Part shown: positions 5,763-50,380 of the stretch, piece by piece
Layout: each line of letters starts with the position of its first letter
Position numbering within the stretch: the first letter of the stretch is position 1
Sequence record: PZ445429.1
Source of the DNA: a phage
Strand: one strand, 5' to 3'
DNA: 64,000 nucleotides
Notes under the pieces: model-generated
What the model saw: only the letters and a program-made list of their open reading frames with translations
The model's database searches: none
Told to the model about the DNA's origin: nothing
Made by a program: the position numbers and the translations under genes

Positions 5763-6275
5763 ATGCAAATCATCACTGTTGAAGACTACAGACTATATGC
5801 TAATGCAAAGCGACCTGATATGGAAACTCAGGTTGAGATGATGATTAAAGCTGCCAATACGCTGATTACAAGCCTTCTAGGTATGGATGATGCAGATGCG
5901 GTAGATCAATTAATCACTACAAAACCTAGCCGTAGGAAATATTTCCTGAGTTCTCCCTCAGCCACATCTATTACAAAGATGACTATTAACGAGAATGAAA
6001 TAGACCCGGAACAGTTTAAACTGTATCCTGATGGTGTTATTCTCCTTAAGTTTAATCCTCCTGAAGGATATATGGATGTAGAGTATACTCAAGGTGGTTT
6101 CAATCCAATGCCTGAAGATCTTAAACTGGCAGCATGTCTGTTAGTAGATCACTGGCATAAGCAAGATTATCGTCAAGCCAAGACTATTGGTGGTGAGACA
6201 GTTACGTTTAACAATACTAAGTCTGGTATTCCAGAGCATATTCGTACAATCATCGAAGTCTACAGGAGAGTATAA
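5763..6275 (+). CDS. Head completion / head-tail connector protein (T5 p144-like, 170 aa)
   Basis: Position after capsid gene; size; start ATG embedded in conserved ttattgggaaaaacaaATG element. Confidence 0.55.
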   Translation: MQIITVEDYRLYANAKRPDMETQVEMMIKAANTLITSLLGMDDADAVDQLITTKPSRRKYFLSSPSATSITKMTINENEIDPEQFKLYPDGVILLKFNPPEGYMDVEYTQGGFNPMPEDLKLAACLLVDHWHKQDYRQAKTIGGETVTFNNTKSGIPEHIRTIIEVYRRV

Positions 6276-7042
6276 TGGCTCTTTCTAATCTAGCTAGACA
6301 AATTATTAAAGAGCAGCTAGATACTGCAGGACGATCTGAGAATAATAAGAATACTGTTGTGTATACAGTTGAGACAGGTTTGAAAGATCCTACAAGAGAT
6401 GGTACAGTTGCACAGGTATCTTTCAAATTCTCGAAACCAGTATCACAAGACTTATTAAATGTTAGGACAGCATCTATACTGAAGGCTGTTTCTTATAACT
6501 TAGATCTTTCTGGTGATTTAGGTGCTCTAGAGAATCTAATTCAAGCAACCGCAGGTAAACGTTCCGCCGTTGGTAAAAAACGTTCTACCGGTAGAGTTCA
6601 GGTAAACTTTGGAGATCCTAGAGATACTGAAGATGGCTATTCTGGTGCAGTAACAGGTGCTTCCGGTCGTTTCGTATCGAATAGTAACATGCGTGCTATT
6701 CTTGAGATAGTAGCTAAGGAATACTTAATCAAGGATATGAAAAAAGCAGGGGCACCCTTGAAGTTCAGAACTGGTCGCTTTGCTAACTCCTTAAAGATTA
6801 AAGACGTTATGCTACGTGACGCAGAAACTAGTAAAGGTGCTCCAGAGCTGAATGTGACGTATAACTATATGGTTCGTCCTTACTCTGTGTTCAACCCCGC
6901 AGTTTCTACATATCGAAGACTTTCTCTACGACCTTACCCTGGCGCTCGAAACCCTCAAAAACTTATTGGGGAAGCAATCGCAAAAGCTGCAAGAGACCTG
7001 ATTCACTCTAGATATAAAATCAAGGTTAATCAAGGAACCTAA
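6275..7042 (+). CDS. Tail completion protein (T5 p143-like, 255 aa)
   Basis: Position between head completion and tail terminator genes; translationally coupled to upstream gene (overlapping stop and start). Confidence 0.5.
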   Translation: MALSNLARQIIKEQLDTAGRSENNKNTVVYTVETGLKDPTRDGTVAQVSFKFSKPVSQDLLNVRTASILKAVSYNLDLSGDLGALENLIQATAGKRSAVGKKRSTGRVQVNFGDPRDTEDGYSGAVTGASGRFVSNSNMRAILEIVAKEYLIKDMKKAGAPLKFRTGRFANSLKIKDVMLRDAETSKGAPELNVTYNYMVRPYSVFNPAVSTYRRLSLRPYPGARNPQKLIGEAIAKAARDLIHSRYKIKVNQGT

Positions 7043-44250: not shown

Positions 44251-44484
44251 TTACGATTCTTTGAGCAAAGAAGCAAGTTCAGCATAGACTTTATCTAACT
44301 CAAAGCCAATGCGAAGAGACACACGAGTCTTCCGTTGTTTAAGTAACCATATGGAGACGTTAGGGATGCCAGCGAGACGAGGTGGTACAACCCTACATAG
44401 TTTCTCCGCAGTATCGTAAACAGAAGTTTTACGTTCTTTTACGGGAAACTTCCTTGTTTCCCACTTTTTATTCTTCGCTGTCAT
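44251..44484 (-). CDS. Hypothetical basic protein (about 77 aa from internal Met)
   Basis: ORF overlapping the 3' end of the large helicase gene; start placed at MTAKNKK. Confidence 0.35.
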   Translation of the reverse strand: MTAKNKKWETRKFPVKERKTSVYDTAEKLCRVVPPRLAGIPNVSIWLLKQRKTRVSLRIGFELDKVYAELASLLKES

Positions 44485-47380
44485 TTCTAGCCCCCAATTC
44501 AGCAAGAGCTTCCTCATGCATCTGACGTTCTTCATCTGTCATAAACTTAACTGGAATCGGCATACATTCGATCTTACAGTAAGTTCTGTACCAGTCCACA
44601 ATCTTTTCCGTATCCAGATCTTTACCGATACCCATCATGCCAAGATACATACGAGCATATTTTGGGTTAGCGCTCTGACCTGTCTTAAGGAAGAAATCCT
44701 TCTTCTTATTCTTAAGAGCTTCGATAAACGGTTTGATTGTTACGTTTGAACACTTTTTAATATCTTCCCAGAACATGTCGTGCATCTTATGGAAGAATGC
44801 AGCTCTATCGTTTGGTTTATCCTTAATATACTGTTCAACGTGTTCCACTATTACATCTTTAATAGAATCCAGATGATAATAGCGAACCAGAAGTAACTTG
44901 GCTTCATAGGCATCTGCATGACGTGGTGCGCAATATTCAGGAGTTGAGTGCAAAATAGCTTTGATTCGCTCTTCTATATACTCTTTGCCTGCACCTTCGA
45001 TAGTTCCCCAGCTTTCGCTGAAAATATCGATAGTTGCACCCTGATCAAGCAGATAATAACGCAAAGTACTAGTATAGTTTCTAGATTCCAGCTCACGACG
45101 ACGTGCGTACAGTTGTTGGGCTAACTCAATCCAACCTTCGTCAATATTATATTGCTCGGAACCCGCAGAAAATCCACTCGTAGATTTATCAATAAAATAA
45201 TAAATGTTCTGAGCACCACGGTCGCGCCTGATTGCTTGGAAACGCATGTTTGGCGCTTGGTTTGAGGTTCTAGTGATTACGAATACGTTATCAAAATAGT
45301 TAAAGTCAACACCACTAGTTACAGATGGACTACATAACAAACAATCAATCTGTTGATCAATTAGCTCATTAGTTGTATAATCCAGAATACGTCGGATATC
45401 TATATCAGACGTAGAGTTTGAGTGAATTTCTTTAACCAACGCACCAGTATTACGACGTAACGCCATTCCCTTTTCATTCAGTTCATCTGGTCCACAGTCA
45501 GATACTAGGATTGACTTCTCACCCATCTCTAGAGATGTTTGAAGTGCAACCCAAATACTGGATTCGTCAGGGAATTCATAAGCGTGAGCTTTCGCCAGCA
45601 TTTTACGGTGATGATTATAGAATGCAACTGGTTTATCAAAATCAATCAAAGAACCATAGGCTTCAATCGTTTCTGCACTGATATCACCATCAGATAAGAT
45701 AACAGTTTTAGCAGTAATAAGGATATCACGAAGAACCTGAATACATTCACGACGGTTTTTAACAACCGGAGCGAATAACAGATCATTCATTACTGCGTCA
45801 CATTCATCAATAAAGATCGTATCAATCTGACCCACAAAGCTCTTGAACTTATGGATAGAGTGAATAGTTGAAGACATACGATCAATAGCACCACGTTTGA
45901 AGTTCAGCATATCAACTGACTTATCATACTGGCCAGCACCGAATTTCTTCGCGTTAGAAGATACAAGTGCCCTAGTATTTGTGATTGCAATAAAGTTTCC
46001 TGGAAGAACACCTGCATCTAGCCACTTAGTTACTGCTGTAGTTTTACCCGTACCAAGACTTGCCTTAACAAATGTTAAATGTCCTTTTGGGGGTACAATG
46101 TTAATTTTCAGGTACGGAACTTCTGGTGGAGAATCTGTGTCTAGACGTTTTAATGGTACACCTTTTAAGTTTGGTGGAATCTCACGTTTGGAGTTATTTA
46201 CAAAGGCTTTGAGAGCCTGCTTACGACCATTATTAAAGTAATCTTGAATATTACGACTATTATCTTTAGTCGCAATATACTCAGATAAAGCTGGTTTAAT
46301 CTCACGTTCTAACCACGTAAAGTCAACACCATCTTCTAACGCTCTGTGATAAAGTTTTGGGATAATACGCAGGTACACTCCATCCTCAGCTTCTTCTAGT
46401 TCGCTGATGGTTTCTTCCACTTTATCAGATGCAGCCTTCTTGCCTTTAATTTGATCAAGTAAGGAGTAGAACTCTTCTTTAAACTCACCTCTAGTTGTTT
46501 CAAAGTCAACTAGGTTATTAGGTAGATTCACCTTCGAACCCTTAACATATACAAGACGTGGTTTATTCTCCGCTTTAAACGGATCGACTATATCATCATC
46601 AAATAAGGGATCTGCGAAATAGTGAAGCTGAACAGAAGAATAATAAGCTAAGTCAGCAATATCAAAACCATACTTTTGCTTACTACTGTCATTGATAGAT
46701 GTAAATAAGAACTTTAACTGTCCCTGCGTTACCTTGACATTAGATTCTAGCATTAAGTGCATTCGGATACCTGGTTTTAATCCAGCCGAAGACGATGCAT
46801 GGGCAATAAACCCTGCATCAAGAGGAAACATATCCTCACTAATACTATTCAACATCTTAATAATATGACGTGCCATGCCAACAAGATTAAACTTGTCATA
46901 GCCACCAGTATCTACAATACCATCCACGTCCATAGCAATAATATGACTAGGATTGGATACATTAAAGTTTCCTCTGGTACGACGCACATTATCTTTTGGA
47001 GCTAAACATTTACCACGAATAGCTACAATATGCGGGTCTTTGGTAAGACGACGCATGATAGGTAACATTTCAGCAAGGTTTTGCGGGTCAAGTTCTTCAA
47101 GTACATCAAATTTGAAGGGCATGGAAGCTGGTTTACCTTCTGGATGCTCTTTAGAGAATCGCTTTGCAAAGGTGTAATCTTCCACTTTGATCTCTTTCCA
47201 GATGCCAGTGGCTTTATCTCTGGAAAATCCTGCGTGACCTTGTAGGATTGAGAACACAACAATACTCCTATGTTGGTTATTCGGATATCTTTCTTTAGGA
47301 CTATTCAAAAGAATAGAACAACTATTACTACCATTTACACAAACATTAATCATCATCAAGCAGTATGAATAAGTTATCAT
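44468..47380 (-). CDS. Large SF2 helicase-like protein, origin-binding-protein-like (970 aa; true start uncertain)
   Basis: Walker A SLGTGKTT and DExD-like FIDECD in the central region; N-terminal about 50 aa Cys-rich and atypical, so the real start may lie downstream. Confidence 0.6.
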   Translation of the reverse strand: MITYSYCLMMINVCVNGSNSCSILLNSPKERYPNNQHRSIVVFSILQGHAGFSRDKATGIWKEIKVEDYTFAKRFSKEHPEGKPASMPFKFDVLEELDPQNLAEMLPIMRRLTKDPHIVAIRGKCLAPKDNVRRTRGNFNVSNPSHIIAMDVDGIVDTGGYDKFNLVGMARHIIKMLNSISEDMFPLDAGFIAHASSSAGLKPGIRMHLMLESNVKVTQGQLKFLFTSINDSSKQKYGFDIADLAYYSSVQLHYFADPLFDDDIVDPFKAENKPRLVYVKGSKVNLPNNLVDFETTRGEFKEEFYSLLDQIKGKKAASDKVEETISELEEAEDGVYLRIIPKLYHRALEDGVDFTWLEREIKPALSEYIATKDNSRNIQDYFNNGRKQALKAFVNNSKREIPPNLKGVPLKRLDTDSPPEVPYLKINIVPPKGHLTFVKASLGTGKTTAVTKWLDAGVLPGNFIAITNTRALVSSNAKKFGAGQYDKSVDMLNFKRGAIDRMSSTIHSIHKFKSFVGQIDTIFIDECDAVMNDLLFAPVVKNRRECIQVLRDILITAKTVILSDGDISAETIEAYGSLIDFDKPVAFYNHHRKMLAKAHAYEFPDESSIWVALQTSLEMGEKSILVSDCGPDELNEKGMALRRNTGALVKEIHSNSTSDIDIRRILDYTTNELIDQQIDCLLCSPSVTSGVDFNYFDNVFVITRTSNQAPNMRFQAIRRDRGAQNIYYFIDKSTSGFSAGSEQYNIDEGWIELAQQLYARRRELESRNYTSTLRYYLLDQGATIDIFSESWGTIEGAGKEYIEERIKAILHSTPEYCAPRHADAYEAKLLLVRYYHLDSIKDVIVEHVEQYIKDKPNDRAAFFHKMHDMFWEDIKKCSNVTIKPFIEALKNKKKDFFLKTGQSANPKYARMYLGMMGIGKDLDTEKIVDWYRTYCKIECMPIPVKFMTDEERQMHEEALAELGARNDSEE

Positions 47381-47746
47381 ACCTCAGTGCTGCGCTCTCT
47401 TAACTCTTATCCAGATCAGAACCTAGGTCATTGGCCGCTAAGCCGATTCTGATTGCCCTCACTATCCTATTGGTAGGTGGCTACTGGACGTGTCACCATT
47501 CGCTGCTCTTTTCGTTCGCACCCCCATATAAAACTCTGCCTATATAACGAGCTAAATATGCACGGTTTGGATTTACCTTTCCGAATTCAGGGTACGCAGA
47601 TCACTTAATTGATAATTAACTAATGCAGTATAAACACTAGTAATAGTTAAAACAACCCTTAATGGGGCAGCCTAACTGTTCCGTATTGCGGATTGTAAAC
47701 AAGAAAAATTAGCAAAATCAATTTTTACTAATGTCTCTCAATTCAA

Positions 47747-47787
47747 TATAAATATTATATCAAGATTTTGAGCATCCTGCAAGTAAA
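47747..47787 (-). promoter_or_regulatory. sigma70-type promoter (TTGCAG, 17 nt, TATAAT) about 370 nt upstream of the helicase-like gene
   Basis: On - strand: -35 at 47777-47782, -10 at 47754-47759; A-tract upstream. Confidence 0.5.
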
Positions 47788-47873
47788 ATTTTTCCGAAGG
47801 TGCTATCAGTGTCTTTGAGCACAGAGAAAACCGAGCCAAAATGACTCGGTAATCAGGATTGGACTAATGAAAA

Positions 47874-48269
47874 TCAATCATCATTTAGGCCTGGAACATA
47901 GATCCCAATGCGATTTAATTTACCTTTAGCTTCTTCGAGAATATCTTCGGTGTACTCCCAAATATCATCTTCTACTTGCAAAAGATAAGGGGATTCACCA
48001 GTTTCGGGGTCACGTGTAATGGCTAAGCCACGTGGATGGAATATAGAGAAGTTGAGGGCAACAATCAAGCCCATACTGGACAATTCATTCCAGTCAGCTT
48101 CCCAACCATCATCTTCATCTTCGTCCACAAAGACACCTACACTAGGGTCTGTTACAGAAGTAAACGGAAATGTTACACTAACCTTGTCAACCCCCAACCA
48201 ACGTGCAAGGAGCCCTTCAGCACGCTCTACCAAACTAGGATCTATCTGACGCCAAAATACTTGTTCCAT
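47874..48269 (-). CDS. Hypothetical acidic protein, paralog B of tandem pair (131 aa)
   Basis: Shares motifs with adjacent ORF (WNELSSMGLIVALN, ETGESPYLLQV, IGIYVPGL). Confidence 0.55.
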   Translation of the reverse strand: MEQVFWRQIDPSLVERAEGLLARWLGVDKVSVTFPFTSVTDPSVGVFVDEDEDDGWEADWNELSSMGLIVALNFSIFHPRGLAITRDPETGESPYLLQVEDDIWEYTEDILEEAKGKLNRIGIYVPGLNDD

Positions 48270-48278
48270 TCTGCCTCC

Positions 48279-48707
48279 TTAAGCAGTTAAACCTGGGATC
48301 ATATACCCTAAACGACGAAGTTTCTGAATCCCCTCATTTACTTCTTCGGGCGAATATGACCAGCCCTCACGTTCATTTACCTGGAAAGCAGGAGCTTCAC
48401 CAGTGCGATAGTTTACAATAAGACGGTGATTTGCAGGCATAAACAGCTTATGGTTCAAGGCAAAAACCAGACCCATTTCATCGAGTTCTTTCCAGTCTAC
48501 AATTTCTTCTACTCCCTCACCTAAATCCACGCTAACTCCAATACATGGAGCTTCCTCTAGTGGGCCTTTAAAGGATAGGAAGATATCGTTATTCTCACAC
48601 CAAATCTTAAGCAGATTGATGGTTTCATTATACATACCATTAGGGAGAGAACGCCAGAAGTTGAGGAGCATAGGGTTTACCTCTTTCATGAAAAGATTAT
48701 CGAACAT
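48279..48707 (-). CDS. Hypothetical acidic protein, paralog A of tandem pair (142 aa)
   Basis: Shares motifs with adjacent ORF (WKELDEMGLVFALN, RTGEAPAFQV, LGYMIPGL). Confidence 0.55.
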   Translation of the reverse strand: MFDNLFMKEVNPMLLNFWRSLPNGMYNETINLLKIWCENNDIFLSFKGPLEEAPCIGVSVDLGEGVEEIVDWKELDEMGLVFALNHKLFMPANHRLIVNYRTGEAPAFQVNEREGWSYSPEEVNEGIQKLRRLGYMIPGLTA

Positions 48708-48709
48708 AT

Positions 48710-49249
48710 TTACACCTTAAGTTTCTGAAGAGCCTTACACATTTCAAGATCTGGACTAAACTCCAGCATATAGCTGATAGCATTTAAATCTTGAAGGTTT
48801 ATTCCAGTCCTGCCATTTACAATAACAGTAGGGAATTGGTACATCATAGCACCAGCATCATCTAGGACACACCAATGCTTGAGCTTATATTTTTCGACGA
48901 AACGTAAAACAGAATTACCCCGAGATAAACCACCTCCAGTAAAATCTGTTGTACCAAGGAAACGATCGATCAAACCGAGTCCGGTCATAATCTGAACGTT
49001 CTCCATTTCATTTCGTACAGAAAACCATGAAGAGACCCCAACAATCATTATTGGGGAGGGTTTAAGAAAGTTCTGAAAAGCCTGGAGTAATGGCTTATAA
49101 ACCCAATCACTGCCAAAGAACAGCTTTTCACTGTCTGGAGCATGATGGTGAGAGATGCTCGAATTGAGCACCCCATCAATATCCAGGAAAATCACAGGAG
49201 TATTACTTATTTCCACTAGTAGCATCCCACGTCCAGACTTTAACTTCAT
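48710..49249 (-). CDS. HAD-superfamily phosphatase-like protein (possible nucleotidase)
   Basis: HAD motif I FLDIDGVL near N-terminus; alternative start at Met 49225. Confidence 0.55.
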   Translation of the reverse strand: MKLKSGRGMLLVEISNTPVIFLDIDGVLNSSISHHHAPDSEKLFFGSDWVYKPLLQAFQNFLKPSPIMIVGVSSWFSVRNEMENVQIMTGLGLIDRFLGTTDFTGGGLSRGNSVLRFVEKYKLKHWCVLDDAGAMMYQFPTVIVNGRTGINLQDLNAISYMLEFSPDLEMCKALQKLKV

Positions 49250-49388
49250 CAGTAAAAGGAACCGGAACCTTCAATTCACCTTTACCCCACATAACAGATA
49301 GGAACAGAGAATAAATGGTAATCATACCGATTAGGTTGACAAACCATACTAGACCTTTCCAGATACCCTTAAAAATCTTCTTCACCAT
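49203..49388 (-). CDS. Small membrane protein (about 61 aa from internal Met)
   Basis: Single predicted transmembrane helix (GLVWFVNLIGMITIYSLFLSVMW). Confidence 0.4.
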   Translation of the reverse strand: MVKKIFKGIWKGLVWFVNLIGMITIYSLFLSVMWGKGELKVPVPFTDEVKVWTWDATSGNK

Positions 49389-49551
49389 ATTCTCCCTCCT
49401 TAATAAGGAACTCTTTCCATTCTGCTGTATCCTCATAGATAACGCAGAAATCATCACTCTTCCATGAGAAGTCATCGGTAGCAAATTCGAAACGGTAGCA
49501 CCAACTACCGTCCGGCCATACTAAAAGATCACACATGCTCTTGCGGTGCAT
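49369..49551 (-). CDS. Hypothetical small acidic protein (60 aa)
   Basis: ORF overlapping the end of the SIR2-like gene and the start of the membrane-protein ORF. Confidence 0.35.
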   Translation of the reverse strand: MHRKSMCDLLVWPDGSWCYRFEFATDDFSWKSDDFCVIYEDTAEWKEFLIKEGEYGEEDF

Positions 49552-50380
49552 AAATAGTTCCTTCCATAAAGGCTTCTACTTGACCAATGAAATGCTTGTT
49601 ACCAAAAACTTCGGCAGCTCCAGCACGCCATACAGTAACACCACGTTTCTCATACTCAAGCTGTTCATCATAACGAACTTGAGGATTAACAACCATCATC
49701 TTAGTTCCACGACATACAGCAGGAAATAATTCCCAGTTGAAGTTGATAACTTGGTTGCTACAACCCACCACAATAACCATGTCATTGCTAGTAAGAGTAT
49801 CAAACAGGTTGATTTGACCCATGTACCACGGAGCCGTCTCACCAAAGAATGTTACGTTTGGTTTTACCCATTCGTAATCCTCAGGGGCAATCGCAGTATA
49901 CCCAACATCTTCGATGATTTGGTTGCGACCCTGACGATAGATCACCTCTTTCAAGTACCCGTGAGCGTGAATGATTTCATCACGAGGGATACCAGCACGT
50001 TCCAGAAGGTCATCAACGTTAGTAGTGAAGTTCTTCACGCTATCCGCACCATAACGCTGGAACCATTCTGCAATTCGCAGATGGGCAATGTTAGGCTCAA
50101 CAGTCTGTAATTCCTGACGACGCATGTTGTAGAACTCATGAGTCTTGAGATATAGATCGTTACCATCTTCATCAATGCCAGGGAAACGAGCACTGAAGTA
50201 GTTAGGATCATCTTCACCACAGAAGCGACGGAAGCCAGCTTCAAAGTTAGGCAAGCTACATACTTCCTCTAGATCGTACTCATCCCACAAGGATTTCCCA
50301 CTAGCAGTATCAGTACGGAATGCACGGATACCACTATCAACACTTAAACCAGCACCACTAACAACGATTAGTCTACGCAT
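49529..50380 (-). CDS. SIR2 (sirtuin)-family protein lacking the zinc-ribbon cysteines (283 aa)
   Basis: Sirtuin Rossmann motifs GAGLSVDSGIRAFR and NVDDL...HAHG plus VVVGCS...VVNPQ; no CxxC...CxxC zinc module detected. Confidence 0.65.
   Translation of the reverse strand: MRRLIVVSGAGLSVDSGIRAFRTDTASGKSLWDEYDLEEVCSLPNFEAGFRRFCGEDDPNYFSARFPGIDEDGNDLYLKTHEFYNMRRQELQTVEPNIAHLRIAEWFQRYGADSVKNFTTNVDDLLERAGIPRDEIIHAHGYLKEVIYRQGRNQIIEDVGYTAIAPEDYEWVKPNVTFFGETAPWYMGQINLFDTLTSNDMVIVVGCSNQVINFNWELFPAVCRGTKMMVVNPQVRYDEQLEYEKRGVTVWRAGAAEVFGNKHFIGQVEAFMEGTIYAPQEHV

What the first reader, a model, noticed from the sequence alone, without database searches (positions are those of the whole stretch)
47874..48707. 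Tandem pair of paralogous acidic proteins
ORFs 48279-48707 and 47874-48269 share a distinctive C-terminal half (W-x-EL-x-x-MGL-[VI]-[FV]-ALN; [RE]TGE-[AS]-P; [LI]G-[YI]-x-[IV]-PGL) while their N-termini differ. Duplicated, diverging small acidic proteins in phage early regions are frequently inhibitors of host enzymes or defences (DNA mimics, anti-restriction proteins).
Basis: seen in the sequence. Interest (0 to 1): 0.5.

Follow-up and report, generated by a model that had tools for sequence, protein, structure and literature searches.

The report
Paralogous DUF7415 proteins of T5-like phage
The two adjacent small acidic genes are true ancient duplicates, the counterparts of phage T5 genes T5.106 and T5.107, and belong to a catalogued phage-only protein family (DUF7415) with no known function or known fold, so the duplication is confirmed but the idea that they block host defences is still untested.

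Summary
ORF A (47874-48269, minus strand, 131 aa, pI 4.05) and ORF B (48279-48707, minus strand, 142 aa, pI 4.67) align without gaps at 32% identity (E 2e-21; shuffle z = 30).

The window is a T5-like phage (Epseptimavirus, 99.8% identical to published genomes). The pair corresponds to T5.106/T5.107, the last two genes of an early operon: nrdD, Sir2-like, HAD, B, A, terminator.

The 50-residue core module also occurs alone or fused in T4-like phages and P2/186-like prophages. Partners include Lar, ASCH, a MazG-like dNTP pyrophosphohydrolase and thymidylate kinase. It is almost absent from plasmids.

A keeps the family core (35/50 identical to consensus); B has lost it (19/50). Both are under purifying selection (dN/dS 0.05-0.27). 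A published knock-down screen calls T5.107 marginally "Fit" and T5.106 not.

Most likely they are non-enzymatic binding proteins for host take-over or counter-defence. DNA mimicry is unsupported. The family is already catalogued, so interest is modest.

The parts
47874..48269 (-). ORF A, 131 aa (stop codon included), pI 4.05, net charge -19. Orthologue of T5.107 and bas26_0047. Two-module DUF7415 protein with the canonical core.
   Evidence: AF2 pLDDT 91.4. dN/dS 0.08-0.27.
48279..48707 (-). ORF B, 142 aa (stop codon included), pI 4.67, net charge -9. Orthologue of T5.106 and bas26_0048. Paralogue of A with a degenerate core.
   Evidence: AF2 pLDDT 90.4. dN/dS 0.05-0.14.
48099..48269 (-). A residues 1-57: N-module (beta-alpha-beta-beta) plus the variable acidic linker DEDEDDGWE. 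This module type is found only in two-module proteins of T5-like phages.
   Evidence: Scores 44.4 bits against Pfam DUF7415 on its own. Secondary structure. The N-module HMM hits only two-module proteins. The loop is variable in orthologues.
47949..48098 (-). A residues 58-107: canonical DUF7415 core (DWNELSSMGLIVALNFSIFHPRGLAITRDPETGESP...WEY), 35/50 identical to the family consensus.
47877..47948 (-). A residues 108-131: C-terminal helix and G-x-x-[IV]-PGL tail, shared with B and with other two-module relatives.
48501..48668 (-). B residues 14-69: N-module. It is preceded by a 13-residue extension (48669-48707), of which residues 1-7 are predicted disordered (pLDDT below 50).
   Evidence: Scores 73.2 bits against Pfam DUF7415 on its own. 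Secondary structure and pLDDT.
48351..48500 (-). B residues 70-119: degenerate core (H to M, G to N, S to A at family-conserved positions), 19/50 identical to the consensus.
48282..48350 (-). B residues 120-142: C-terminal helix and LGYMIPGLTA tail.
48274..48280 (-). Shine-Dalgarno AAGGAGG for A, overlapping the TAA stop of B (48279-48281), 4 nt before the ATG. Only 9 nt separate the two genes, which is consistent with translational coupling.
   Evidence: Sequence read directly.
48713..48718 (-). Shine-Dalgarno AAGGTG for B, inside the 3' end of the HAD gene (whose stop is at 48710-48712), 5 nt before the ATG.
   Evidence: Sequence read directly.
47822..47850 (-). Intrinsic-terminator-like hairpin (9-bp stem ACCGAGUCA/UGGCUCGGU) followed by a U-tract, 24 nt after the stop of A. 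It marks the end of the operon.
   Evidence: Fold -18.8 kcal/mol, z = -3.4. T5 has an annotated terminator at the same position.
48710..49249 (-). Context: upstream gene of the operon, a HAD_SAK_2 phosphatase-like protein (T5.105 orthologue). It is present in some T5-like lineages only.
49529..50380 (-). Context: Sir2-like protein (T5.102 orthologue). It lies 0-3 genes upstream of the DUF7415 gene or genes in every T5-like lineage where the upstream region could be read.

Best explanation
Shown: A and B are tandem paralogues of one phage-specific gene family (Pfam DUF7415, PHROG 2502) and the orthologues of phage T5 genes T5.107 and T5.106. They are the last two cistrons of an early operon (nrdD terminator, small ORFs, Sir2-like, small ORFs, HAD-like, B, A, terminator) and carry tightly spaced ribosome-binding sites. 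Each protein has an N-module, a 50-residue core module, a helix and a PGL tail. Each is confidently predicted to fold into one compact alpha/beta unit that resembles no solved structure. A keeps the family-wide core motif; B has lost it. Both are maintained by purifying selection. The duplication predates the split between T5-type and Sugarlandvirus-type phages, and more distant T5-like phages carry one copy.

Inferred: the proteins are not enzymes. They most likely act by stoichiometric binding early in infection. The same core module occurs in T5-like, T4-like and P2/186-like phages, whose replication and transcription machineries have little in common. The shared target is therefore most likely host-encoded and conserved among Gammaproteobacteria, or a universal molecule. 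The most likely role is host take-over or counter-defence, with A as the main effector and B as a diverged copy with a changed or auxiliary specificity.
For: - Paralogy: E 2e-21, z = 30.
- Family: DUF7415 at 98 and 125 bits against a cut-off of 27; PHROG 2502 at E 2e-58 and 3e-59.
- Identity and synteny: 99.8% to phages bux and GreteKellenberger; T5.106/T5.107 with annotated promoter and terminator; own terminator and Shine-Dalgarno evidence.
- No enzyme family matches in Pfam, NCBIfam or PADLOC.
- Core conservation: consensus; A 35/50 and B 19/50 identical to it.
- Selection: dN/dS 0.05-0.27.
- Distribution: 911 phage records across T5-like, T4-like and P2-like phages; 80 viral loci, mostly P2/186-like prophages next to gpA, methyltransferases, CII and DinI; 22 mostly gammaproteobacterial genome loci; 2 plasmids.
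- Promiscuous fusions: Lar, DUF5405, HTH_37, ASCH/DUF3850, dATP/dGTP pyrophosphohydrolase, thymidylate kinase, DUF551.
- Copy number and order in T5-like lineages.
- Fast divergence relative to neighbours: A 64% and B 72% identical to T5, against 91-93% for HAD and the ori-binding protein.
- Experiment: T5.107 is one of 17 'Fit' T5 genes in CRISPRi-ART (mean -2.90, p = 0.02); T5.106 is not (PMC11879866).
Against: - No binding partner or phenotype is known. The host-directed binder step is inference from distribution alone.
- The invariant N, H-P, G and S positions of the core could form a small ligand or catalytic site in an oligomer rather than a protein interface. They could also be purely structural turn residues.
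- Fusions and neighbours lean towards nucleotide metabolism (thymidylate kinase, MazG-like, Nudix, nrdD/nrdG), which fits an accessory metabolic role as well.
- The CRISPRi-ART effect on a laboratory K-12-type host is marginal and the screen is insensitive: the primase/ori-binding gene T5.108 also scored Not Fit. If the effect is real, it points to a general rather than a host-specific role.
- One Tequintavirus has an A allele 98% identical to the window but a B allele only 75% identical. The two genes therefore reassort and need not work as a matched pair.
Confidence: 0.4

Rival explanations
1. Accessory or regulatory subunits of phage enzymes. The module would be an adaptor or oligomerisation domain. 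It would attach to or regulate the co-operonic Sir2-like enzyme, or nucleotide-metabolism enzymes more generally, rather than target the host.
For: - A Sir2-like gene lies 0-3 genes upstream, in the same operon, in every T5-like lineage where the upstream region could be read: T5, the window, Sugarlandvirus, My1 and five metagenomic lineages. In one case the two genes overlap.
- Sir2, A and B all diverge fast (52%, 64%, 72% identity to T5) while HAD and the ori-binding protein stay at 91-93%.
- The module is fused to thymidylate kinase and to a dATP/dGTP pyrophosphohydrolase.
- In Jiaodavirus it sits between nrdD and nrdG, overlapping both. In other T4-like phages it lies next to a Nudix gene.
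Against: - T5-like genomes are syntenic throughout, so adjacency within one family is weak evidence.
- No Sir2 or HAD homologue lies within 6 kb of the single-module genes in 80 other viral loci.
- The fusion partners are heterogeneous and include Lar, HTH and DUF5405, which are not metabolic enzymes.
- In P2/186-like prophages the neighbours are replication and regulatory genes.
Confidence: 0.2
2. DNA-mimic anti-restriction proteins. The acidic surfaces would imitate DNA and block type I restriction-modification or other DNA-binding defences, as Ocr, ArdA and Arn do.
For: - A is the most acidic product in the window.
- Acidity is conserved: A-type median pI 4.29, B-type 4.75, distant two-module relatives 4.50.
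- The genes are expressed early.
- A Lar restriction-alleviation domain is fused to the module in three prophage loci (28.8 bits against a cut-off of 28.6).
- Orphan Dam-like and C5 methyltransferases are neighbours in 18 and 9 of 66 loci.
Against: - No sequence or fold match to Ocr, ArdA, Arn or any other solved protein.
- The DEDEDD loop is replaced by SGYAGE or by insertions in orthologues.
- Single-module relatives are only mildly acidic (median pI 4.9, range up to 10.2).
- The module occurs in 2 of 72,556 plasmids.
- From general knowledge, T5's known protection against EcoRI restriction maps to the pre-early first-step-transfer DNA, not to this region.
Confidence: 0.1
3. Small-molecule sponge. 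Oligomers of the module would sequester a nucleotide-derived immune signal or metabolite, as Tad1, Tad2 and Acb2 do.
For: - The core motif is very strongly conserved across unrelated phage groups, with invariant N, G and S and near-invariant H-P. That fits a conserved small ligand.
- The proteins are small, phage-only and under purifying selection.
- Partners handle nucleotides or NAD (Sir2, HAD, MazG-like, Nudix).
- One GenBank record labels a homologue 'anti-CBASS protein acb1'.
Against: - The acb1 label has no support in any search run here.
- A strongly negative net charge is unfavourable for binding anionic nucleotides.
- The invariant residues sit at predicted helix-strand and hairpin turns and may be purely structural.
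Confidence: 0.08
4. The similarity is chance, or the ORFs are non-functional remnants.
For: None found. Some database records carry contradictory labels ('tail tube protein', 'exonuclease').
Against: - z = 30 against shuffles.
- Both ORFs are intact in hundreds of phage genomes.
- dN/dS is 0.05-0.27.
- Both have strong Shine-Dalgarno sites and a terminator follows.
- Both AF2 models are confident.
- T5.107 has a knock-down phenotype.
Confidence: 0.01

Closest known systems
Pfam DUF7415 (PF24187) / PHROG 2502; phage T5 T5.106 and T5.107
   Same: Full membership. Both proteins and each of their four halves exceed the Pfam cut-off. Both give full-length PHROG 2502 matches. Gene order, operon position and terminator are the same as in T5.
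   Different: Nothing differs. The window's genes are 98-99% identical to deposited Epseptimavirus genes. The family has no assigned function.
Single-module DUF7415 proteins (PHROG 3954) of T4-like phages and P2/186-like prophages
   Same: They share the 50-residue core IDWNELS-GLI-IN-EILHP-GLA-RD-ETG-S-WEY. A is 35/50 identical to the consensus.
   Different: They lack the N-module and the PGL tail. They lie in different genomic contexts (gpA, methyltransferases, NudE, nrdD/nrdG). They are often fused to other small domains and are not linked to Sir2.
DNA-mimic anti-restriction proteins (T7 Ocr, ArdA, T4 Arn)
   Same: Small, strongly acidic, early-expressed and phage-encoded.
   Different: No sequence or fold similarity. 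The acidic loop is not conserved. The module is absent from plasmids. No functional data exist.
Lar / Ral restriction-alleviation proteins
   Same: Three prophage relatives fuse the DUF7415 core to a Lar-type zinc ribbon.
   Different: A and B contain no Lar domain. The Lar match in the relatives is borderline (28.8 bits against a cut-off of 28.6).
Anti-CRISPR AcrIC4 (PDB 8dfo_M)

Membership tests
Pfam DUF7415 (PF24187) | Score above the curated gathering cut-off (27 bits) | tested here: met
   A scores 98.1 bits and B 125.5 bits. The four halves alone score 44.4, 57.6, 73.2 and 55.1 bits.
Pfam DUF7415 (PF24187) | Two homologous repeats per protein (internal duplication) | tested here: inconclusive
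   The Pfam model hits both halves, and both halves have the same beta-alpha-beta-beta order. Profiles built here from N-halves only and from C-halves only do not detect each other: hhalign probability 2.7%, and hmmsearch finds no cross hits.
PHROG 2502 (T5.106/T5.107 family) | Full-length match to the profile | tested here: met
   E 2.2e-58 (A residues 1-130) and 2.9e-59 (B residues 11-142) over profile positions 2-134 of 134. The CRISPRi-ART annotation table lists T5.106 and T5.107 as phrog_2502.
DNA-mimic anti-restriction proteins (Ocr/ArdA/Arn) | Strongly acidic protein | tested here: met
   A has pI 4.05 and net charge -19 (most acidic of 70 in the window). B has pI 4.67 and net charge -9.
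DNA-mimic anti-restriction proteins (Ocr/ArdA/Arn) | Sequence or fold similarity to a known mimic | tested here: not met
DNA-mimic anti-restriction proteins (Ocr/ArdA/Arn) | Conserved array of surface carboxylates that imitates the DNA backbone | tested here: inconclusive
   The densest acidic stretch of A (DEDEDD, residues 49-54) is not conserved in orthologues. Overall acidity is conserved.
DNA-mimic anti-restriction proteins (Ocr/ArdA/Arn) | Binds and inhibits a DNA-binding defence enzyme | not testable with these tools
   Needs biochemistry or plating assays.
Lar restriction-alleviation family (PF14354) | Lar zinc-ribbon domain present | tested here: not met
   Pfam finds only DUF7415 in A and B. 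The Lar domain occurs only in fused prophage relatives.
Nucleotide-signal sponges and nucleases (Tad1, Tad2, Acb2, Acb1) | Sequence or fold similarity to the solved proteins | tested here: not met
Nucleotide-signal sponges and nucleases (Tad1, Tad2, Acb2, Acb1) | Binds or degrades an immune signalling nucleotide | not testable with these tools
   Needs binding assays.
'Tail tube protein' and 'exonuclease' (labels in some GenBank records) | Match to a tail-tube or nuclease family | tested here: not met
   No such family appears in Pfam, PHROGs or NCBIfam. The genes lie in the early replication and nucleotide-metabolism region.

The most novel reading that the evidence does not exclude
DUF7415 would be a new fold and a new class of phage effector module, used across T5-like, T4-like and P2-like phages of Gammaproteobacteria to neutralise one conserved host factor or immune pathway. 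In T5-like phages the duplicated two-module form would work together with the phage Sir2-like enzyme as an NAD-linked counter-defence or host-take-over module. That would explain why T5.107 is one of the few unknown genes with a fitness effect.
Probability: 0.15. Interest if true: 0.7.

Novelty: already known. Interest (0 to 1): 0.33.

Why it matters
The gene pair is catalogued in Pfam and PHROGs and is present in hundreds of sequenced T5-like phages, including T5 itself. The sequence observation is therefore not new. What remains open is the function of a widespread phage-only module that has no structural relative among solved proteins. The module is carried by three very different phage groups. 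Its T5 representative T5.107 is one of only a handful of unknown-function genes with a measurable fitness effect. If a conserved host target or a link to the phage Sir2-like enzyme were found, a function could be assigned to about 900 phage records at once. It might also reveal a new take-over or counter-defence mechanism.

Tried and rejected
- Sequence search of A and B against PDB found only compositional leucine-rich-repeat noise.
- Testing the internal repeat with my own profiles failed. N-only and C-only profiles do not cross-detect, so I do not claim the internal duplication as shown.
- An A+B complex prediction was not feasible. MAFFT aligned the B homologues onto the A part of a linker fusion, making that alignment useless. 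I dropped it and used the second structure job for B alone.
- A search for HAD or Sir2 homologues near single-module genes in 80 viral loci found none.
- Rfam found nothing in 47000-49500. NCBIfam and PADLOC gave no hits.
- Literature searches for DUF7415 and for T5.105, T5.106 and T5.107 in main texts gave no papers. HIDEN-SEQ (T4, Bas37, Bas54) and the JSS1_004 paper turned out not to concern this family.
- The labels 'tail tube protein', 'exonuclease', 'MazG-like' and 'anti-CBASS acb1' in GenBank records were rejected as unsupported.

Full report
**What is there**

The stated interval holds two minus-strand ORFs.
- A: 47874-48269, 131 aa.
- B: 48279-48707, 142 aa.

BLASTP aligns them without a gap over 124 residues at 32% identity, E 2e-21. 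The Smith-Waterman score is 175 against 28.4 ± 4.9 for 2000 shuffles (z = 30).

The statement that the N-termini differ is not accurate. The alignment starts at residue 5 of A and 17 of B. The N-halves alone give z = 8.3, with 24.5% identity against 38% in the C-halves.

A has pI 4.05 and net charge -19, the most acidic of about 70 ORF products in the window. B has pI 4.67 and net charge -9.

**Where it comes from**

The region is 99.8% identical to Salmonella phage bux and Escherichia phage GreteKellenberger (Demerecviridae, Epseptimavirus). There the genes are bas26_0047 and bas26_0048, annotated as hypothetical proteins.

In phage T5 the orthologues are T5.107 (A) and T5.106 (B). They are the last two genes of an early operon with this order:
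- the nrdD terminator, then an annotated promoter;
- T5.100 to T5.107, including the Sir2-like T5.102 and the HAD-like T5.105;
- an annotated terminator, followed by the ori-binding/primase gene T5.108.

The window shows the same layout.
- A terminator-like hairpin lies 24 nt after the stop of A (47850-47830, fold z = -3.4).
- AAGGAGG overlaps the stop of B, 4 nt before the ATG of A.
- AAGGTG lies inside the end of the HAD gene, 5 nt before the ATG of B.

**Family and fold**

Both proteins match only Pfam DUF7415 (98 and 125 bits, cut-off 27). Both match PHROG 2502 (unknown function) over their full length. Their C-halves also match PHROG 3954.

Each of the four half-proteins passes the Pfam cut-off on its own. 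However, N-only and C-only profiles built here do not detect each other. An internal duplication is therefore suggested by the Pfam model and by the identical order of secondary-structure elements, but it is not shown.

AlphaFold2 gives confident models:
- A: pLDDT 91.4, pTM 0.86.
- B: pLDDT 90.4, pTM 0.83.

Both have the same architecture: strand, helix, hairpin, then strand, broken helix, hairpin, helix and tail.

**Distribution**

An exhaustive profile search found 154 cluster representatives. Most are single-module proteins of 70-110 aa. The consensus is IDWNELSELGLIVAINREILHPLGLAIARDPETGESPGLLVAEDGVWEYS.

tblastn finds the module in about 900 phage records. These are T5-like phages, many T4-like phages of Klebsiella, Enterobacter, Cronobacter, Aeromonas and Vibrio, and P2-like phages.

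In 80 viral contigs the module sits mostly in P2/186-like prophages. Its neighbours there are the replication gene A (31 of 66 loci), a Dam-like methyltransferase cluster (18), a C5 methyltransferase (9), CII and DinI.

In T4-like phages it lies either between nrdD and nrdG or near a Nudix gene and a GmrSD_N-like gene.

Fusion partners are Lar (borderline), DUF5405, HTH_37, ASCH/DUF3850, dATP/dGTP pyrophosphohydrolase, thymidylate kinase and DUF551.

Only 22 genome loci were found, mostly Gammaproteobacteria. Only 2 of 72,556 plasmids carry it.

**History of the pair**

The N-module occurs only in two-module proteins of T5-like phages.

Two copies are present in:
- Markadamsvirinae;
- a Sugarlandvirus-type Klebsiella phage;
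- two metagenomic lineages.

In each of these the divergent copy is upstream and the canonical copy downstream.

One copy is present in phage My1 and four other lineages.

A crude neighbour-joining tree groups the upstream copies with B and the downstream copies with A. That suggests one old duplication followed by losses. This is tentative.

A is 35/50 identical to the family consensus and B 19/50. B has lost the conserved H, G and S positions.

Both genes are under purifying selection, with dN/dS 0.05-0.27. They diverge much faster than their neighbours: A is 64% and B 72% identical to T5, against 91% for HAD and 93% for the ori-binding protein. The Sir2-like gene is also fast, at 52%.

Phage JLBYU43 has an A allele 98% identical to the window but a B allele only 75% identical. 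The two genes therefore reassort.

**Experimental evidence from the literature**

In the CRISPRi-ART transcriptome-wide knock-down of T5 (PMC11879866), T5.107 is listed among 17 'Fit' genes and described as of entirely unknown function. Its mean guide fitness is -2.90 (p = 0.0215, 5 guides). T5.106 is 'Not Fit' at -3.28 (p = 0.167).

The effect is marginal and the screen is insensitive. T5.108, the primase/ori-binding gene, also scored Not Fit.

No paper in the library mentions DUF7415.

**Interpretation**

Shown:
- an old tandem duplication of a catalogued phage family;
- real genes under purifying selection and with expression signals;
- a compact fold with no relative among solved structures;
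- a canonical copy (A) and a degenerate copy (B).

Inferred:
- The proteins are probably binders rather than enzymes. They are small and match no catalytic family.
- The same core occurs in phages with unrelated replication and transcription systems. The common target is therefore probably a conserved host factor or a universal molecule. That points to host take-over or counter-defence (confidence about 0.4).

The main rival is an accessory role for the co-operonic Sir2-like enzyme or for nucleotide-metabolism enzymes (0.2).
- For it: Sir2 lies 0-3 genes upstream in every T5-like lineage where the upstream region could be read, and the fusions include thymidylate kinase and a MazG-like domain.
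- Against it: T5-like genomes are syntenic throughout, and the single-module genes have no Sir2 nearby.

Against it are four points:
- no fold match to any known mimic;
- a non-conserved acidic loop;
- near-absence from plasmids;
- a possible fitness effect on a laboratory host.

A nucleotide-sponge role (0.08) is not excluded. Chance similarity or pseudogenes are excluded.

**Verdict**

The interpretation can be neither supported nor refuted. The feature is an already catalogued family of unknown function. It is a reasonable target for experiments but is not surprising in itself.

Noticed in passing
window 47258-47873: About 616 bp of non-coding DNA lies between the terminator after A and the ori-binding/primase gene, and it is AT-rich (GC 0.29 at 47600-47799). 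The mechanical 970-aa ORF (44468-47380) is probably over-extended. The GenBank annotation (929 aa) and the PHROG alignment (from residue 42) both put the start near 47257. T5 has the same long gap with an annotated promoter. No Rfam match and no notable repeats were found.
   Followed up: partly
L091 (Escherichia phage JLBYU43) 601-1434, against window 47874-48707: There is a mosaic junction between the two paralogues. The A allele is 98% identical in protein to the window, while the adjacent B allele is only 75% identical and is of T5 type. A recombination point must therefore lie in or near the 9-nt spacer.
   Followed up: partly
window 48710-49249: The HAD_SAK_2 phosphatase-like protein is labelled 'Sir2 (NAD-dependent deacetylase)' in PHROG 18062 and in the T5 record (T5.105). 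It has no Sir2 domain, so the label looks like an annotation spill-over from the neighbouring gene.
   Followed up: partly
window 49529-50380, against T5 (L004 12448-13266): The phage Sir2-like protein is only 52% identical between this phage and T5, although the flanking HAD and ori-binding proteins are 91-93% identical. It is a fast-evolving or exchanged gene of unknown role.
   Followed up: no
GenBank records under hits H6, H41, H44, H86, H87, H104, H126; proteins P0001, P0024, P0041, P0042: Orthologues carry contradictory and unsupported product names: 'tail tube protein', 'exonuclease', 'anti-CBASS protein acb1' and 'MazG-like family protein'.
   Followed up: yes
hits H99, H145, H185 ('Listeria phage LM 4-11-1', records of 2.4-2.7 kb); proteins P0045, P0047 ('Enterococcus faecalis', partial): T5-like sequence, 80% identical or more to this region, is deposited under Gram-positive phage or host names on very short records. 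This is probably contamination or mislabelling.
   Followed up: no
L037, L038, L039 (P2/186-like prophage contigs), about 6001-6426: A 141-aa protein joins a DUF7415 core to a Lar-type restriction-alleviation zinc ribbon. This is the only link found between the family and a named anti-restriction function, and it only just passes the Pfam cut-off.
   Followed up: partly
L002 3977-4195 and L088 2477-2710 (Jiaodavirus, T4-like): A 72-77-aa single-module DUF7415 gene is wedged between nrdD and nrdG and overlaps both. In T5-like phages the two-module genes are also in the operon just downstream of nrdD. It is unclear whether this is coincidence.
   Followed up: partly
window 49203-49551: Two overlapping mechanical ORFs lie between the Sir2-like and HAD genes: 49203-49484 (TTG start) and 49369-49551. 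They correspond to the small genes bas26_0050/0051 and T5.103/T5.104 (PHROG 5116, unknown function). The 49369-49551 product is 53% identical to the T5 counterpart over 45 residues.
   Followed up: no
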